Shown one piece after another: positions 10,575-43,443 of a DNA stretch of 64,000 nt; within the stretch, counting starts at the first letter, position 1, and every line of letters starts with the position of its first letter. This stretch comes from Octopus vulgaris. Lineage: Eukaryota. Both the position numbers and the translations under genes were made by a program. Where the stretch lies: NCBI GenBank assembly GCA_951406725.2, contig OX597815.1, forward strand, positions 13,144,001 through 13,208,000, in the 5' to 3' direction. Below the pieces are notes generated by a model. The model was not told the origin of the DNA, did no database searches, and worked only from the letters and a program-made list of their open reading frames with translations.

Positions 10575-10862
10575 AGGATTTAAAAATAGGATCAAATCTT
10601 TATAAGAATTTATCAAGTAGTTAGCGGGAAAAACCTCATAAGAGAAAAAAAACCATCATTTTTTTCCCCTTTAAATGTATTCATTTTTATTTTATAGAGG
10701 TAATTATTACACATAAATGGCACACGCTAGGAAGGACTTTGAAGTCAAAACTACTAAACTAAACATATCGTACCGAAAAAAATGTCGAAGCAAATCATTT
10801 AAAAACAGATTTCGGTACGATAGGTTTATTTTAGTAGTTTTGACATCGAAAGTCCCTCCTAG
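10575..10862. mobile_element. Fold-back element, probably from a PLE pseudo-LTR (same family as 13025-13470)
   Basis: Homologous to 13025-13265; inverted arms at 10727-10778 and 10810-10862. Confidence 0.75.
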
Positions 10863-13024: not shown

Positions 13025-13608
<584 letters not shown>

Positions 13609-14296: not shown

Positions 14297-15082
14297 TTTA
14301 TTTCTTATTACCCACAAGGGGCTAAACACAGAGGGGACAAACAAGGACAGACGAAGGGATCAAGTCGATTACATCGACCCCAGTGCGTAACTGGTGCTTA
14401 TTTAATCGACCCCGAAAGGGTGAAAGGTAAAGTCGACCTCGGCGGAATTTGAACTCAGAACGTAGCGACAGACGAAATACCAATTTCTTTACTACCCGCA
14501 AGGAGCTAAACACAGAGAGGACAAACAAGGGCAGACAGAAGGATTAATTCGATTACATCGACTCCCGTGTGTAACTGGTACTTATTTAATCGACCCCGAA
14601 AGGGTGAAAGGCAAATTCGACCTCGGCGGAATTTGAAATCAGAACGTAGCAGCAGACGAAATACCTATTTCTTTACTACCCGCAAAAAGCTAAACACAGA
14701 GAGGGCAAACAAGGACAGACAGACGGATTAATTCGATTACATCGACTCCAGTGCGTAACTGGTACTTATTTAATCGACCCCGAAAGGGTGAAAGGCAAAG
14801 TCGACCTCGGCGGAATTTGAACTCGGAACGTAGCAGCAGACTAAATACCTATTTCTTTACTACCCGCAAGGGGCTAAACACAGAGAGGACAAACAAGGAC
14901 AGACAAACGGATTAAGTCGATTACATCGACCCCAGTGCGTAACTGGTACTTTTTTAATTGACCTCGAAAAGATGAAAGGCAAAGTCGACCTCGGCGGAGT
15001 TTGAACTCAGAGCGTAGCGGCAGACGAAATACTGCTATGCATTTCGCCCGACATGCTAATGTTTCTGCCAGCTCGCCGCCAA
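14297..15082 (-). mobile_element. Tetrameric tRNA-derived SINE (family B, Nin-like domain) with one head and one 15-bp TSD
   Basis: Four ~183-bp units. The head GGCGGCGAGCTGGCAGAAAC occurs only at the 15080 end. GAGAAAGGTAATATA is at 14282-14296 and 15083-15097. Confidence 0.92.
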
Positions 15083-20910: not shown

Positions 20911-20988
<78 letters not shown>

Positions 20989-22033
20989 GAGGGAATATTA
21001 TTCCAAACTTACAGGATAAATTTCAATCTAGAAATAATAAATCAAATTTCAAAAAAAATTTTTGTTATCTATGTGAACAATTTTATAAATTTTTAATTAT
21101 TGCAAATAATTATGTTTAACTCTACTACAGAGATAATTGACTTGGTAGAACATTATATGCAGTGGAGTATATAACTGGGAAGTTTCATACATATGCCTAC
21201 GCACAATTGCTTGCATGTGTGAGTCAAGTGGAAAAATAATATTCCCGTTCGTATACCCACACATATCAGCCATATATGAAGAATTGATAAAAGCGTATAT
21301 ATATGCATATGCACGTCTCATATTTATAAAACTCATTTCTATAGCATTGAATCTACATACATAATAGTATATTTACACAGAAACACACACAACCACACAT
21401 TCACACACGAGTCTGTGTATATCCATATATATATATGCATGTGTGTCTGTGTATCTGTGTGTGTCCGTGTGTTTGTGTGTGTGCGTGCGTGCGTGGGCAC
21501 GTACGTACGTGCTAAAGTGTGTGATGTTTAAATTTTTCAGATGTTGACCAGAAATATTTCAAATGTCAAATTTAGGTGTACTTCAAAATCAAAGGTCAAT
21601 CTCTATAACTTTGATGGCACACTGATGAAATGTATATGCAGGCGTTGAAATTCGCGTCAATTCATTTGACCTTTGGAAGTGGATAGTGAGATGGGAAGTA
21701 GGTGTACGTAGGAAAGATAAAAGTGAACACATCAGACACATGTATCCAACGTCATTGGTGTGAAAGATATATATATATATATATATGGAAATTAAATTTG
21801 CACAATCGCATTGATTGAAAAATATTCTTATATTCAAGTTTTGAAGTATGTTCCAATCGTGTGTTAGTGATATAGAGAAACGTATACATGCAATGGGTAT
21901 GTGGTGATTCTATGTTTCGATATTCGGGGTCTTATATGCATAGTATATATTAATCTTTGTTGCACATACATAAACTGAAATAATCACATGCATACATACA
22001 CAAACACACACGCTTACACAAAAACATGCATAA

Positions 22034-28090: not shown

Positions 28091-29495
28091 ACCTTGTTTA
28101 AAGTGGCACTCTGTACTTTCCAACATGTGGCGGCATGTGCCACAGTTAGGCCGACCGCATTTTCTCACTTTGGTTCTTTTGTTAATGGATAATGTCTTGC
28201 TTTGGTTAATGTTTTTTCAATGATTTCGGTTGCATTTTCCTCTTGATAATTTTGTGTGAGACTAACATTTTTTTCATTGTTGTATCTCCTGTGATATTGG
28301 GTAGATTTCGGGTGATAATGTTGAAGGCTTCGTTGTTTCGAGGTTTACATGTGGAAATTTATGGGAGTATTTTTAAGTCTGGTGTTGTGTTTCGGTTGAC
28401 TTCCCTTAGTGTTCGTATGTCTGTTTCCTTTGTTCGTTTAATCCCATCATTTGTTAATGATGTTGGGTAATTTCACTTGATTAGTATTGATCAGACTTCA
28501 AGGAGTCTTCGTTCCCGAGTATTGGTGTCCGAAACTATGGTACAGATTCTTTTCGCTAGGTTATAGGTTTATTAATTTTTATGCGTCTGGGGTGGCATGA
28601 GTTGAATAATATTATTGTTAAGAATATGTGGGTTTATAGAAGAGGTCTGTTTCGATGTGGTTATTGACTATTAGGATGTCAAGAAAAATGAGTTGTTTAT
28701 TGCTGTATCCCATGGTAAATTGTATGTTGCTATTGATATTTTGCAATCTTGGAGTTTGTCCTTGCTATTTTTCCAGCGTACGCATCACTTATCTAAATAC
28801 CGCTTCTAGTTCTTTAAATAGCAATCAAATGAGGCGTCATATTTTTGTAGAGATGATTGGTATATTTTAAGTTCTAGGTAACCCATTAGAATGTTCGAGA
28901 TAACTGGAGCGGCCCGGGTTCCCATCGCAATTCCACATTTTTGTCGATAGTAGAATGCATCGAACATGAAATAGTTGTTCACTGGGATTAATTCCAGTGC
29001 TGAGATTATGAATCTGTGGTAGATGAGTCCTAGGATCTCTTCTGGGTATTTTTCTAGCCAGAAGGTGATTGCTTTTATGCAATGATCATGCGGGATATTG
29101 GTGTACGGGTTCTCCACATCGAATGCTACTAACAGGGTTCCTTCATTCATTGCCTTCGGGAGGTGGTTAAGCATGTCTAAGCCACCCCTGATGAAACATT
29201 TCACATATTTTAGAAACGTTTTGAGTAAGATGTCGAGGAAAATGCTCAAACAGTGAGTTTCACAGCAGGGTCCGCAATGATGGGTCCTTGTTTGAGATAA
29301 GTAGCGGGAGGAACATTAAAGCATATGCTTCGAGAATCTTTGCAAGCTTTATAAATATGTACATTTTTGTATATTTTAGGTAATCCGTAGAATGGACTAG
29401 CCCCGTATTTAAAATTGGATAAATAGTCAATTTTTGTTTTAGTGAGGCCCTTTCCATGTATTTGAAGTAAGATGGATAAGTTTTTAAGTGTCTTA
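28091..29495 (-). mobile_element. Penelope-like retroelement RT pseudogene fragment
   Basis: ORF 28806-29249 has FDVENPYTNIP and RQKCGIAMGTRAAP. Frameshifted continuation gives RYLD, IQFTM..FLDI..TDLFYKPT..NSCHP and KCGRPNCGTC. Confidence 0.92.
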
Positions 29496-29508
29496 TATAT
29501 ATATATAT

Positions 29509-29771
29509 ATATTATATTAAATTAGAGATAAAACCACTATTAGGCAAATCAAACAATGAAAAACTTAAGCCAATACATAAAATTAATTAATTTATATTAT
29601 TTTTAAAATATATCAAAAGTATTAAAAGTTTAATCAAAGATAATGATTAAACTTTTAATACTTTTGATATATATTTAAAATAATATAAATTAATTAATTT
29701 TATGTATTGGCTTACGTTTTTCATTGTTTGATTTGCCTAATAGTGGTTTTATCTCTAATTTAATATAATAT
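29509..29771. repeat. Near-perfect ~127-bp-arm palindrome at the 5'-truncated end of the PLE
   Basis: Arms at 29509-29636 and 29644-29771 with a 7-nt loop and few mismatches. The extension 29776-29850 resembles the reverse complement of 20985-21050. Confidence 0.93.
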
Positions 29772-29847
29772 AATATTTTACTATAAAATTGGATTCAATC
29801 CTTAATCTAATTTTTCCCTGTAAGTTTGGATTTATCCCCTAATATTT

Positions 29848-29885
<38 letters not shown>

Positions 29886-30753
29886 ATGCAGGATATGATG
29901 CATTTAATTGAATATTATGCGACCTAATATGGACAGCGCAATCATACACTTCGTCTATCGAACTGATGGACAGTTAACAAAGGTTACCTGTCCATCAGTT
30001 CGATTCACAGTTAACACAGAATACATTGACAGTTGCAAAGCGATTTACTACTAATGATATTCCCCTCAATTCAAAGAAGGGAATGTAAGGTCGAACACAC
30101 ATTTTGTCTCTGTTACAGCATCGATGTCCTCTAACTGGTTTCAGAATATTTACATTTCAGGCTATGCAAAGATCGGCCTTTAATTTTTGTTCATATTCAC
30201 TTTATATGTCGAACGAGATGTTGTATGTAAAACTTTGTCCATACATTTTATTTAGAGAGCATTTATCTTCTACGTCTTTATTGTCGAGATCTGAACTAGA
30301 TTAGAGTAGTTCAAATCAATATGAACTGAAACAACCCCACCTATAAGTGTCGGCTCTCAAATGCCATGAACTCTGTCAGTCATCTACAGACTAATTAATA
30401 TTAGAAAAGAAAATGATATGACAAAGAATACCGCTGTGTGTAATTATATTTGAAATAACCTCAGTAAATAGAGAAGTGCAATCGTCTGTATCAGACAGAA
30501 TGTGTCTATACCGAGTTATTGTTAACTACTATATCGGGATATAAAGAATTATGGGACAGGAATTCTCAAATTAGCTCATATTTTGTACAGGGAGATATTA
30601 ACATAGAACCCAATGTTGTACTCCAGCCACATTTACAAACACGCAGATTAGTACGTTTATTGCACATAAATGCTTGTGTGTATATATGTGTATATTTGAT
30701 CGTGTGTGTGTGTGCATTTATGTATGTACGTATGTATGTGTATATGTGTCATA

Positions 30754-31603
30754 TACGTGGTCTTTTCAATAAGTAACCTGACTGTTTCAATACTAACGAG
30801 GCTAAAGCACCCAGAGTGAAGCGGCTTGGCACATTTTGATCTGGATGTCAAGTTTTGATGTAAAGTTTTAACATTCTAGCTCATATCCGCTGTGTAACGT
30901 GTGGCGGAGAAAGTTGAGCAGAGCATCTGCATAAAAATTTTGCCAAAAGCTTGGTGATACCTGCTCAGAGCCCTACGCAAAGTTTTCAAAAAGTTGTCAG
31001 CGATCTCAATACAATTAACGTAATCTTTTTCAACTAAAACCCGAGTATCCTTTTAGTCAACTGAAAGCAGTTTGGGCACAGACTTAGCAGACACGCGTCT
31101 CATACCTAAGTCTTCACTGATAATGGAGTTAACTGAACCGTAACTAAGTTACACATCCTCTTATAACTCACAAATGGAGATTCAATGATTTTGCTTCGCA
31201 GCTGCACGTATATCTGAGATGTTTTACTGAGTATTATTAGTTGCGGTTCCGCAGAAGGATCGTCAATATCGACAAATTTTCGGCCATTTTGGAAATGTCT
31301 GAACCAGTCGTACACTTGTCTACGTTTTATACACTCCTCGCCATACACCTTCTGCAACTTTGCGCAGGCCTTTTCTCTGGAATCGCCGTGACATCTTTTT
31401 CACTCATGGTCAATGCAACTATCACACGTTACACACGTTACTTCCAAGCACTGCTGTAAACAGGGTATGTAAGCCAGGACGTTGAATCTTAGTGTGCCTG
31501 CACAGCAGAGGTCAAGGTTAATCTATGCCAAGCAGCTTGATTCTGCTGGCTTCAGCTTCGTTACTATAGCAGCAGTCCAGAGACTTACTGATCAGATTTT
31601 GTA
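30754..31603. mobile_element. Non-autonomous mariner-like element with degenerate long TIRs
   Basis: TA-flanked ~80-bp imperfect TIRs. The plus strand gives KVEQSICIK/FCQKLG; the minus strand gives QKVYGEECIKRRQVYDWFRHFQNGR. Confidence 0.8.
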
Positions 31604-36253: not shown

Positions 36254-36271
36254 AACATATATATATATAAA

Positions 36272-36853
36272 ACATCTCCCCACACAATACAAGGTATCAT
36301 AAAAGTTGAAGCACCTCAAAGGGCAATCACAAAAAAGATAGATGGCATGACAGGCCTCGACTATTGGGGTCGACTAGAAAAGCTAAAACTCTATTCTCTC
36401 CAACGTCGTCGTGAGCGCTACATCATCTGCATGATGTGGAAAATATTCCATCAGCATTGCCCAAATGATGTTGGCATCACCTTTAAGGTACATCCAAGGC
36501 TTGGGCCCCGTGCCATCCGCCCAAAACAAAAATCGCACTATCATCTCATAACAACAATACGGCACAATTATTTCACCTCAATTGGCCCCGCTCTCTTTAG
36601 CATTACACCAAAACACATTAAAACAGAAACTGACCCTATAGGGTTCAAGAAGTCTTTGGACAGATTCCTTCAAGAAATCCCGGATAAACCCCCTACACCC
36701 GGATATGTCTCTGTAAACAATAACTCTCTACTTGAGTGGGCCATAGTGCCCAAATTCTGACTTGAAAGACTTCACCAGGTGGTGCTATTAAGTTAGACAT
36801 GGCCTGGGCCAATAATGGCCGAAACCTATCAAAGTATCAAAGTATCAAAGTAT
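36272..36853 (+). mobile_element. 5'-truncated CR1-group LINE 3' end
   Basis: Open frame [32 protein letters not shown]...GPALF...[16 protein letters not shown]; 3' UTR stem-loop and (TATCAAAG)n tail. Confidence 0.9.
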
Positions 36854-37033
36854 TTATATATATATATATATATATATATGTGTATATGTGTATGTATGTA
36901 TATATGCATGTATTTGTATATGTGTATATGTGTGCATGTCTGTCTGTATGCATATATATATATATACACACATTCATATATATATATATATACATACATT
37001 TATAAACTTAGATATACATATATATAGACATAG

Positions 37034-39383: not shown

Positions 39384-40409
39384 ATTCCACCTAGGCATGT
39401 TTATGGTCATGTGAAAAAGTGTGATTGTATTTCATAGTAAATTATGAATCTCTTAGCAAAGGTATATTATATATCGAAGTATCCATAAGTATGATAATGA
39501 AAAAATTGTATGGACTATATCATAAATTATAGCCACCATAGCATATTTCTTATTTTCATATATGACGAGCTTTCTGTTTCCATCAATGTGTTCACTAGTT
39601 TCTGATGACGCAGTAACAGAGAAAACGTCTCTTCTAAATATTTCATATATCTCATTAAAGGCTATCCCAATATAGCCATAAACATTCTCGTCGATTCACT
39701 AATATTACTTTCGTTTTGGATCAACGACTGTATAGCAAATTATCTTCAGAAACGTCCTGGTATACAATTCTTGCTTCCAAATAATATCAGGTAATTAATG
39801 AACATGGCCAAATTCCAAATAAAGGTTACATTTCCAAATATATTAGTGCCCTATTGCAATTTCGTGGCAAGGTTCCCATGTTTTTAAAATCTTTATCGCT
39901 AAAGAGAGCACATGAGTAAACTTAGTAAAGTTCGCTACGATAAATCAGAAGCAAACCAGAGTGTGGGTTTCTAGAGTGTTACACATTTTATTAATGGCAA
40001 AGAATGAGGACGTCCGTCTTTAGGTTCTGGGAATGTCATGTAAAATTTTTAAACTCAGTATGCCAATGGACAAAATTCAATAATTTTATTACAATCCCTC
40101 TAATATTCAAAGTGAAGGATATTTAGTAGTCAATATCTGAGAATTTATGTTTATATTTATTCGATAACTGTAGCCTCGGTTAATAATTTCTAATTTAAGT
40201 TAGAAAGTCTTTCGTATATGCAGTTGATCGATTACAGCGATCCCAGTGCTTGAATAGTTCTTTCACCTATAGCCCCCCCCCCTTAAGAATGGAAGAAACG
40301 TGGGGAAAAATTTGTAATTTCTGATTTTTGTTATTATTTTCTCTTCAGATGCTTGATATCATAATATTGCAAGTATTACTTTATCATTTTGTACGGTTAC
40401 GTCATCTTT

Positions 40410-40707
40410 AAGGCCATGTAGGGGGACATGGAGTTAAGTACAGGGTGGTGTTCATGTAAAGAGTTCAGGCCACTTGAGGTCCAGGGAGGCTTTGAACAAA
40501 GCGGTCGTCGGCATCTTCACCATCTCGTCTGGAACAAGCTGCCAGACGAGATGGTGAAGATGCCGACGACCGCTTTGTTCAAAGCCTCCCTGGACCTCAA
40601 GTGGTCTGAACTCTTTACATGAACACCACCCTGTACTTAACTCCATGTCCCCCTACATGGCCTTGCTATTTGCTTTTGAGCCAAATTAACTAACTAACTA
40701 ACTAACT
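40410..40707 (+). mobile_element. CR1 LINE 3' end with inverted self-duplication (123-bp hairpin) and (TAAC)n tail
   Basis: Arms at 40410-40532 and 40542-40664 with one mismatch. The forward part encodes WNKLPDEMVKMPTT..., as in the 42940 copy. Confidence 0.95.
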
Positions 40708-40816
40708 AAAAATTGCTCAGAATAGTTGTTGTTTTTCAAGTTGAGAGTGTTTGAAACAGTCGGTTAGCAGGCAGTGGATTTCCAAGAAATTTGTCCACAA
40801 GTTTGACCCGATTTTA

Positions 40817-41817
40817 TAGGGTCATCCCATAAATAATGCAAATTTTAATACTTCTTTTATTTTTCAGTATTAAGATAAACAAAGTTCTTCTTTAATCTAA
40901 AATATACTCTCCTTCATTTTCTACAATGCTCTTCCATCTCTCTGGTAGACCTGCTAGACCCCTTTTTTAAAATTCACTTGTCCGTGACAGAATATACTCC
41001 TCCAGTACTGTTCTGAACTTGTCTGCAGAATTCATATTTTCGCCGTCTAACTGATTTGGAAGACTATATAGCAAATGATAATCAGACGGGGATATGGTGA
41101 ATGGGGGGGGGTCGGTTCCATTCAAACAGCTCCAGCTTTTGGAATGTCATCCCCTCTCTTTGTGCCCGAGTATTATCCTTATAGAAGAACACATTTCGTG
41201 TCTTGAAAGCATAGATGGCTATTTTCCTTCTAGCGCTAAACCTTTCATAACCCATCAAACAGGTAACAACACCTTACGTGAGTAAAGACCTTCTTTAGCC
41301 TGGGGTGTTTCCCCTTTCCCTACCCACTATCTTCGGCGTTTGACATTTTAATAGGGAACCCATTTCTCGTCACCAGTCAGTATTCGGTCCCAAAATGGTT
41401 CATTCGTGTGACGTGACAGCATAGAGGATCACACATTCACTGTCGGCCGTGTGATTATTCTCCGAAGGTTTGTGAGCAACACACTGACCCAATTTTCTGA
41501 CTTTTCCGATGGCATGCAGGTATCGTTGAATGGTTGAATGGCAAAATCCAAGCTCGTCTGCTAGTTCCTCAACAGTTACGATGGGATTTTGTTCCAGCAG
41601 TGTTTGCAGGACGGCCTCGTCAAGCTCTACAGACCTCCCAAGACGAGGACCGTCTCCTATGTTGCAGTCTCCAGCTCAAAATTTCTGGAGCCATCGTTGA
41701 AACTGACTTACGCTTATTGTCCGATTCTCATATACTGCATCAATAATCCTCACACTCTCCTTGGTGTTGGTAACTCATAAAGCAAAGATGCTCAATATGC
41801 TCCTTCGTAATTTCCAT
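40817..41817 (-). pseudogene. Degenerate mariner transposase with one TIR-like end
   Basis: Frameshifted MEITKEHI, VEELADELGFCHSTIQRYLHAIGK, RILTGDEKWV, SDYHL and LPERWKSIVENEGEYILD* (stop at 40892). TA plus GGGTCATCCCATAAATAATGC at 40817. Confidence 0.88.
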
Positions 41818-42939
41818 TACAGCTTTGCAGAAATAACTGTTAAAATTGAACTGCATTCTTCAAAATTGCTCAGCATATTTGTTGTTCAATTTGAGAATAT
41901 TTGAAAGCTAGTCGGTTCAAAATTTGCAGTAAGTATTAGTACAAGGTACAATTATTACTTGCTGTTATAGCAAGTTGATGTAGGTAGTTTCTCGCGTTCC
42001 CTTTCGTCTTTTAGTTCAGGCAATTGAAAAAAACCGCATTGCTTATTGGACGACCCAATAATTGAGATTACAATTAACGTATCTGGATAATGTTTTCCTC
42101 TTTGACAATAAACATTCGTTTTTCTTTTCGAGTCCAAATCAAAGAGAACGGAGAAAATTGTCGGAATAAGTGTTCTGAATATCTTAGTTTTTAATGTATT
42201 TTGGGTTAATTTACTTAGTTGATATGGTTTTTACAGGTAGTGAACATGGGTAAAAAAATATTTTTATTCGCAAATGAAAATGAGTAAATATTACTCATTG
42301 TGCTATATTTAATTATAGTTTATCTTTGCCATATTTTGAAACTAGAAGGTGAAGAACCAGAATATATATTGCTTAACACTGTTTTCTTCTTGAATAAATA
42401 AACCCGCAAATCTAGAATTTTGCAGTCTTTACAAATTAAAACATGCATATGATATGAAAGTGAACGCTATAAAAGGAATTTTGGGTGAGGAACTCAAAAT
42501 AATATATTCAAGTCAACACTTTCTCGCACTTACGGAAATTCCAGTTGGACAACTGGCATTTCTGTAACACAATTCTATAGACAGTGGAAATTAACGATGA
42601 TGGAGTTCGCACAAAATGAACAGAGCTGAATTCAGAGGATATCAAAGTAATTTCTGGATTAAACCCCAAAATAAGATTTCTTCCTTCTTCAACACAATAC
42701 ACCGGGAAATATAAATACAAATAATTGCACATACCATACAAAGCATATATAATTATATATATGTGAATATTATTGTTAATTTAATGTATACATTGCCTAT
42801 ACCTTGTCATAACATACTGACTAGCAGATAAAAATCATTAATGTGACTTTTATCCTTATATTCTATTATGAATTAATATATACATTTTAAAAAAAAATAA
42901 TTTACTTATTTTACAGAATAACATATACTGCATGACTAT

Positions 42940-43443
42940 ACATATATCTCCTCAAAGACATACAGCATCTCGAAAGAGTCCAGAAGTTGGCTACCCGCAT
43001 GGTTCTTGGTCTCAAGAATTTGTCTTATGAAGAAAGGCTGAAGACGCTCGACCTTTATTCTTTAGAAAAACGACGACGCCGTGGTGATCTCATTCTTGCT
43101 CACAACATCATAAGCGGAAAGTGTAACCTCTCGAAAGAGCTGTTCTTCACTCCTGCTCCAGAGCGTCGGCTGCGGGGTCACTCCAAAAAGCTCCATCTGC
43201 GACGATTTCATCTCAATCGAAGGAGGGGGGCTTTCTCCGTCCGGGTTGCGGATCCGTGGAATAAGCTGCCGGACGAGATGGTGAAGATGCCGACGACCGT
43301 TCGGTTCAAAGTCTCCCTTGACCACAAGTGGCCTGAACTCTTTACATGAGCACCACCCTGTACATAACTCCATGGCCTCCTACATGGCCTTGCTTTTTGC
43401 TTTTTGAGCCAAAATTAACTAACTAACTAACTAACTAACTAAC
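42940..43443 (+). mobile_element. 5'-truncated CR1 LINE
   Basis: LERVQKLAT..SYEERL..LEKRRRRGDLI..RGHSKKL..FSVRV..WNKLP..FKVSLD; (TAAC)n tail. Confidence 0.95.

What the first reader, a model, noticed from the sequence alone, without database searches (positions are those of the whole stretch)
40410..40707. 123-bp snap-back hairpin formed from a CR1 3' end
Seen: the arms match at 122 of 123 positions around a 9-nt loop. The forward LINE sequence runs through the loop as TGG-AACAAGCTG-CCA, so a 3-bp TGG/CCA inverted microhomology closes it. No TSD is visible, and the flanks join as ...TCTTT|AAAATTG. Inference: the cDNA 3' end folded back and copied itself, unlike twin priming, which does not duplicate sequence. 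If transcribed it gives long dsRNA, a potential ADAR or siRNA substrate homologous to other copies such as 42940.
Basis: partly seen in the sequence, partly recalled or inferred. Interest (0 to 1): 0.7.

Follow-up and report, generated by a model that had tools for sequence, protein, structure and literature searches.

The report
Folded-back retrotransposon fragment in octopus
A short, dead piece of a common jumping gene in what looks like an octopus genome carries a mirror copy of itself, most likely because its new DNA folded back and copied itself during insertion, a known kind of insertion accident with no sign here of a function.

Summary
The hairpin is in the sequence as described: arms 40410-40532 and 40542-40664 match at 122 of 123 positions around a 9-nt loop. 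The forward part, 40530-40709, is the 3' end of a CR1-type LINE, 91% identical to the copy at 43257-43438, whose protein is 90% identical to an Octopus vulgaris record. The inverted arm lies wholly inside the forward piece, starts 12 nt downstream of its 5' end, and joins through TGG/CCA. That fits cDNA snap-back, a junction class already described for R2 insertions in human cells. Two corrections: twin priming does duplicate sequence in 17% of L1 inversions, so nesting, not duplication, is the argument; and a 3-bp TAA target duplication is possible, though not above chance. The single mismatch is a derived change in the right arm, which argues against a library chimera. Fold-back repair of a later break gives the same sequence and is not excluded. 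Transcription, editing and small RNAs are untested. A second young short-loop hairpin (126 of 129) of another repeat lies at 29508-29772. Verdict: real, known mechanism, new host and clade; modest interest.

The parts
40410..40532 (-). Inverted arm: reverse-complement copy of the CR1 piece 40542-40664 (last 26 codons of ORF2, stop, first 42 nt of the 3' UTR); has no tail; inferred snap-back product
40530..40532 (+). TGG (Trp codon of the W-N-x-L-P motif): first bases of forward LINE homology and last bases of the inverted arm; inverted microhomology with CCA at 40542-40544
40533..40541 (+). 9-nt loop, native forward LINE sequence (codons N-K-L), present once
40530..40622 (+). Last 30 codons and stop of CR1-type ORF2 (5'-truncated forward copy)
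   Evidence: tblastn of P0001: 90%, E 4e-14
40542..40664 (+). Right arm of the hairpin; carries the one derived change (T40605, Pro to Ser) not found in the left arm, the second copy or P0001
40623..40686 (+). 3' UTR of the element; inverted arm stops 22 nt before the tail
   Evidence: weak predicted stem-loops, not above shuffles
40687..40709 (+). (TAAC)n tail, five full units plus TAA; same tail in the second copy
40409..40411 (+). Left copy of a possible 3-bp target duplication TAA (right copy 40707-40709); its AA may also be a 2-nt microhomology at the outer junction; unproven
   Evidence: 67% chance level; 3-5 bp expected for CR1/L2 clades
42945..43443 (+). Second, longer 5'-truncated copy of the same CR1-type family, no inversion; used as ruler for the native sequence

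Best explanation
One aberrant insertion of a young CR1-type LINE. (1) Target-primed reverse transcription began at the (TAAC)n tail and stopped after about 180 nt at the Trp codon (5' truncation; shown by the anatomy). (2) The free cDNA 3' end, ...CCA, folded onto a TGG 9 nt back on the same strand and was extended about 120 nt with the cDNA as template (inferred from nesting, short loop and 3-bp inverted microhomology). (3) The extended end was unwound and joined to the upstream target end with 0-2 nt of microhomology, and the other strand was filled in (inferred). The polymerase, the element's own RT or a host end-joining polymerase such as Pol theta, cannot be told from sequence (Pol theta named from general knowledge). 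(4) One C-to-T change later arose in the right arm. The product is a dead, non-coding 300-bp insertion; it would fold as a 123-bp duplex if transcribed, but most likely it has no selected function.
For: Inverted arm wholly nested in the forward piece, 0 nt unique to it, its inner end 12 nt from the forward 5' end. Same anatomy as the 'snap-back' junction class of R2-mediated insertions, including target junctions to antisense cDNA (PMC11371274; low frequency, PMC11331408). Yeast experiments show single-molecule fold-back inversions with outer junctions of 0-5 bp microhomology (PMC11724301). A short-overhang LINE (ZfL2-1, also called CR1-1_DR) gave no twin-priming inversions in two cell lines (PMC4245944). 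Left arm has 0 of 26 residues that differ from both other family copies, so little divergence built up before the fold-back; arm divergence dates it to about 1.1 My (95% range 0.03-6.3, rate). CR1 has recently active families in O. vulgaris (13 families, 787 insertions).
Against: A 3-bp microhomology arises at 5% of random junctions, and 68 of 412 possible cDNA stop points in the second copy offer such a fold. The terminal 3-bp stem is not in the minimum-energy fold of the cDNA end. The second copy has CCG, not CCA, so the third base of the microhomology may not be the family state. Target-site integrity, which would tie the event to integration, is not shown. 6 of 11 positions where both arms differ from the second copy are synonymous or in the UTR and cannot be polarised, so shared private changes are not excluded. 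The sequence alone cannot separate this from later break repair.
Confidence: 0.6

Rival explanations
1. Post-insertion fold-back: a double-strand break or stalled fork at or inside an existing CR1 copy exposed the same bottom strand as a 3' overhang, which folded back at TGG/CCA, was extended and was end-joined to the left side, possibly deleting the 5' part of the LINE and some flank.
For: Gives the identical sequence. Templated inverted duplications form at breaks in yeast and beside L1 insertions; 277 inverted duplications outside mobile-element events, median 284 bp, in 1,019 human genomes. Flank continuity could not be shown. A second hairpin of an unrelated repeat in the same window suggests a host process not tied to CR1.
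Against: No amino-acid change private to the left arm (0 of 26), so the copy was young when it folded; the fold point is the 5' end of the LINE piece, where a cDNA end would be; a possible TAA duplication would indicate an intact target (not significant).
Confidence: 0.2
2. Twin priming with complete overlap: the top-strand end primed on the RNA in the 3' UTR, both cDNAs ran to nearly the same point (for example the end of a broken RNA) and annealed by TGG/CCA.
For: Twin priming gives internal duplications in 283 of 1703 L1 inversions and microhomology at both junctions; it can in principle yield this exact sequence.
Against: Those duplications are short (median 22 bp) while the inverted part is long (median 0.54 kb) and reaches 5' of the forward part; here the duplication is 123 of 123 nt and nothing lies 5' of the forward part. 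Both cDNAs would need the same 123 nt of template. Short-overhang LINEs gave no 5' inversions. Priming homology is at most AA.
Confidence: 0.1
3. Library or assembly artefact (fold-back chimera).
For: Short-loop palindromes are a known product of amplification and library steps (general knowledge); two near-perfect ones occur in this 64-kb window; no reads were available.
Against: The arms differ, and the left arm keeps the family base. The left arm exits after 123 nt into unique sequence and does not continue as an inverted copy of the right flank (no alignment), so an artefact would need two switches. No gap in the window. The second hairpin has 3 mismatches in 129.
Confidence: 0.07
4. Two independent head-to-head CR1 insertions, later homogenised by gene conversion.
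For: The family is multi-copy; another copy lies 2.5 kb away.
Against: The left copy has no tail and overlaps the right one by 3 nt; the arms agree at 11 positions where the neighbour copy differs.
Confidence: 0.03

Closest known systems
'Snap-back' 5' junctions of R2-protein insertions (PRINT; PMC11371274, PMC11331408; passages read)
   Same: cDNA 3' end primes on the cDNA itself; the target is joined to antisense element sequence
   Different: Engineered avian R2 in cultured human cells at rDNA, often after full-length cDNA; here a natural, 5'-truncated CR1-type copy fixed in an assembly
L1 twin-priming inversions with internal duplication (10.1101/2024.08.27.596794, PMC12350158, PMC2912911; passages)
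   Same: Inverted 5' part, duplicated element sequence, microhomology at junctions; annotation tools would probably bin this insertion here (inference)
   Different: Duplication usually about 22 bp and inverted part extends 5' of the forward part; here fully nested with a 9-nt loop
Fold-back inverted duplications at breaks and beside L1 insertions (PMC11724301 abstract and two sections; PMC10191854 and 10.1101/2024.12.14.628481 passages)
   Same: 3' overhang folds on a 2-10 bp inverted microhomology, is extended and end-joined; 52-220 bp in normal colon L1 insertions
   Different: Those duplicate the genomic flank on the reciprocal end; here the element's own cDNA side is duplicated
Inverted pLTRs and junction palindromes of Penelope-like elements (PMC3846280; passages)
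   Same: Head-to-head inverted 5' segments attributed to self-priming
   Different: A regular feature of a different retroelement class; not described there for CR1. Probably the right comparison for the second hairpin at 29508-29772

Membership tests
CR1-clade LINE | ORF2 C-terminal region homologous to APE-endonuclease/RT proteins and to bird CR1-type RT | tested here: met
   Second copy: 49% identity, E 8e-25 to a Grus japonensis RT record; 14 longer relatives, 12 with PF00078 and 5 of those also with both endonuclease domains. That the bird record is CR1 is inferred from general knowledge of avian LINEs, not from a label.
CR1-clade LINE | Placement in the CR1 clade (not L2 or other sister clades) by RT-domain phylogeny | not tested
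   No RT domain of this family in the window and no labelled reference set in hand
CR1-clade LINE | 3' end in a short tandem repeat, not poly(A) | tested here: met
   (TAAC)n in both copies
CR1-clade LINE | Conserved 3' UTR stem-loop | tested here: inconclusive
   Weak folds, z -0.8 and -0.5; only two copies
CR1-clade LINE | Short (3-5 bp) target-site duplication | tested here: inconclusive
   TAA candidate; 67% chance level; expected length
cDNA snap-back junction | 5'-adjacent sequence is the reverse complement of the element's own cDNA | tested here: met
   definition
cDNA snap-back junction | Inverted part nested within the region the cDNA had already copied | tested here: met
cDNA snap-back junction | Formed during integration, before the 5' junction | not testable with these tools
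   Needs the empty site or alleles; flank continuity not significant
Twin-priming inversion | Inverted segment extends 5' of the forward segment's breakpoint | tested here: not met
   0 nt outside the forward piece; usual geometry
Twin-priming inversion | Long overhang / 10-20 bp target duplication | tested here: not met
   Longest junction repeat is 3 bp; 10-20 bp typical
Functional hairpin RNA (endo-siRNA, miRNA or ADAR substrate) | Transcription through both arms, small RNAs or A-to-I edits | not testable with these tools
   No expression data; no Rfam match in the window; 0 of 198 screened frames matched a host-gene family, 3 matched transposon-type domains
Functional hairpin RNA (endo-siRNA, miRNA or ADAR substrate) | Compensatory changes maintaining the stem | tested here: inconclusive
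   One copy, one difference (G-U compatible on the + strand only); too young to show selection

The most novel reading that the evidence does not exclude
Snap-back is a common, host-driven way of finishing truncated retroelement insertions in octopus, across unrelated families: this one window holds two young hairpins of about 125 bp with 7-9 nt loops and the same nested layout (CR1 at 40410, a probable Penelope-type repeat at 29508). If that density held genome-wide there would be many thousands of near-perfect hairpins matching active families, a self-made source of long dsRNA for cephalopod ADAR editing or endo-siRNA silencing, and a natural record of the end-joining step in a clade thought not to make 5' inversions.
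Probability: 0.15. Interest if true: 0.6.

Novelty: new member of a known kind. Interest (0 to 1): 0.3.

Why it matters
How the 5' end of a LINE insertion is joined is still unsettled. A clean natural snap-back in a CR1-type element would show that the junction class seen with engineered R2 also occurs in a germ line and in a short-overhang clade where twin priming was not observed, and it warns that nested inverted duplications may be mislabelled as twin priming. As a single dead insertion it matters little; its value is as a search image for a genome-wide count and for overlap with the repeat-directed editing reported in coleoids.

Tried and rejected
Empty-site reconstruction from the mariner paralogue at 41862: right flank matches, left flank does not beyond chance (17 of 150); rejected as evidence. 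TAA as a proven TSD: rejected. A stable pre-formed fold at the cDNA end: not found in three folds. A 3' UTR stem-loop as the stop signal for the copied arm: folds not above shuffles; left as speculation. Known RNA family: 0 Rfam matches in 64 kb. Host gene giving a transcription direction: 198 stop-to-stop frames (45 aa or more, filtered for simple repeats, GC 36% or more) scanned against Pfam, 3 hits, all transposon-type; short or AT-rich exons would be missed. More DNA copies of the family: 0 matches in the bacterial/archaeal genome collection, as expected; no octopus genome or read set was searchable, and viral and metagenome contigs were not searched, so alleles, the empty site and the family's base at the CCA/CCG position stay open. 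Pfam has no model for this C-terminal piece. The species label rests on one source's name for P0001. Literature for a CR1 or cephalopod snap-back: searches (0 papers; 4 papers, none on this by listing or passages; first 20 of 1,264 listed, none containing 'snap-back'); the library lacks most subscription papers, including the 2025 Science paper on R2 repair pathways (nothing read). The supplement of PMC13282606 (listed only) and the supplementary size distribution of twin-priming duplications in 10.1101/2024.08.27.596794 (not seen) could bear on family identity and on the twin-priming rival.

Full report
Observation. A scan of all centres and loop sizes gives arms 40410-40532 and 40542-40664, complementary at 122 of 123 positions, with a 9-nt loop at 40533-40541 and one mismatch, G40469 opposite T40605. 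As RNA the + strand folds into an unbroken 123-bp stem, the mismatch pairing as G-U; z = -33.4, 0 of 100 shuffles as stable.

What the sequence is. 40530-40709 aligns to 43257-43438 at 166 of 182 and both end in (TAAC)n. The second copy holds 137 open codons that match a protein named Octopus vulgaris at 90% identity, a crane reverse-transcriptase record at 49%, and 14 longer proteins of which 12 carry the RT domain PF00078. So this is the 3' end of an APE/RT LINE of CR1 type, and the window is probably from an Octopus species (inference). Clade placement by RT phylogeny was not tested. Forward homology begins exactly at the Trp codon: the 15 nt before it match the second copy at 1 of 15, while the second copy and P0001 agree there. 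The inverted arm corresponds to positions 43269-43391 of the second copy and the forward piece starts at 43257, so the arm is fully nested and its inner end lies 12 nt from the forward 5' end.

Order of events. Both arms agree at 11 positions where the second copy differs; five of these change amino acids to the state seen in P0001, six are synonymous or in the UTR and cannot be polarised. The left arm has 0 of 26 residues that differ from both other copies; the right arm has 1 of 26, the Ser made by T40605. The one mismatch is therefore a later change in the right arm, not a copying error in the left. With the rate used for octopus repeats (0.0036 per site per My; PMC13282606 passages) the arms separated about 1.1 My ago, range 0.03-6.3, if not homogenised since.

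Junctions. The inner junction shares TGG/CCA. That is modest evidence: 5% of random junctions show 3 nt or more, 68 of 412 possible stop points in the second copy offer such a fold, the terminal stem is absent from minimum-energy folds of the cDNA end, and the second copy has CCG. At the outer junctions TAA occurs on both sides, in the 3-5 bp range reported for CR1 and L2 clades (PMC4245944 passages), but the same permissive rule finds 3 nt or more in 67% of 5000 blunt placements. The right flank resembles the 5' region of the neighbouring mariner (48 of 59); the left flank's continuation scores no better than 17 of 150 random segments. The empty site is thus unknown.

Mechanism. Best reading (0.6): reverse transcription stopped after about 180 nt, the cDNA 3' end folded back 9 nt, was extended about 120 nt on itself, and was end-joined to the upstream target. 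Shown: truncation, nesting, loop, microhomology, one later mutation. Inferred: timing at integration and the polymerase. R2-mediated insertions in human cells include this class, with target junctions to antisense cDNA (PMC11371274 passages; low frequency in PMC11331408 passages), and barcoded ssDNA in yeast shows single-molecule fold-back insertion (16% of 342 with identical barcodes, under 1% expected; PMC11724301 section). The main rival (0.2) is fold-back repair of a later break, which uses the same strand and gives the same sequence. An artefact (0.07) would need two template switches, since the left flank is not an inverted copy of the right remainder, and would not explain a polarised mismatch; only reads can exclude it.

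Function. Nothing here shows transcription: no Rfam match, and 0 of 198 screened frames matched a host gene family, 3 matching transposon-type domains. Coleoids do edit repeats widely (PMC9068888 passages), so if the locus lies in a transcript editing is plausible, but that is a by-product argument, not a function.

Context. A scan of the whole window for non-simple inverted repeats of 20 bp or more with spacers up to 30 nt returned 4 candidates: this one, two TA-rich stretches at 37002 and 37808 that fall in microsatellite arrays, and a second long hairpin at 29508-29772 with 126 of 129 matches and a 7-nt loop. Its right arm continues about 70 nt to a (TA)n tract, so it has the same nested layout; it abuts a decayed RT (PF00078, E 6e-4) that I read as Penelope-like from a recalled motif, and junction palindromes from self-priming are described for that class (PMC3846280 passages). 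No native copy of that repeat spans its loop in the window, so its origin is less certain. Two cases in one window are a lead, not a rate.

Novelty. The mechanism is known; I found no report of it in a CR1 element or a cephalopod in searches, within a library that lacks most subscription papers. Other papers seen: 10.1101/2024.12.14.628481, PMC12350158, PMC10191854, PMC2912911 and PMC13580325 as passages only; PMC11724301 abstract and two sections; no supplement was read. Verdict: real feature, new member of a known kind, interest 0.3; the bolder reading, that snap-back hairpins are abundant in octopus and feed dsRNA pathways, has probability about 0.15.

Noticed in passing
window 29508-29772: Second near-perfect short-loop hairpin, 126 of 129 matches, 7-nt loop, AT-rich, not CR1; right arm runs on about 70 nt to a (TA)n tract, and that end piece recurs at 20946-21022. 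Probably a Penelope-type inverted terminal segment.
   Followed up: partly
window about 28100-29495, minus strand: Decayed reverse-transcriptase ORF with several stops and frameshifts (PF00078 E 6e-4); read as Penelope-like from a recalled N-terminal motif.
   Followed up: partly
window 40817-42058, minus strand: Decayed mariner-type transposon with terminal inverted repeats (18 of 23 identical) and TA on both sides, 107 nt right of the hairpin.
   Followed up: partly
window 40709-40765: The hairpin's right flank is 81% identical to the mariner's own 5' region at 41862-41917 although it lies outside that element; possibly an older related element split by both insertions.
   Followed up: partly
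window 13121-13480 and 10727-10862: A repeat family with long inverted arms (85% and 77%) and longer spacers, at least three pieces in the window; the 13.3-kb spacer and a small palindrome at 29957-30004 have hammerhead-like core words by eye (recalled motif; no Rfam hit at gathering threshold).
   Followed up: no
window 36269-36760: 3' end of a second, more distant LINE family (29% to P0001, E 3e-6).
   Followed up: no
window 14299-15032: Four tandem copies of a 184-bp repeat (91% match) whose unit is also dispersed at 26.2, 27.2 and 32.9 kb in both orientations; a likely SINE-type repeat and a more abundant source of inverted pairs than the hairpin.
   Followed up: no
window 31109-31399, minus strand: Another mariner transposase fragment (PF17906, E 6e-8).
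   Followed up: no
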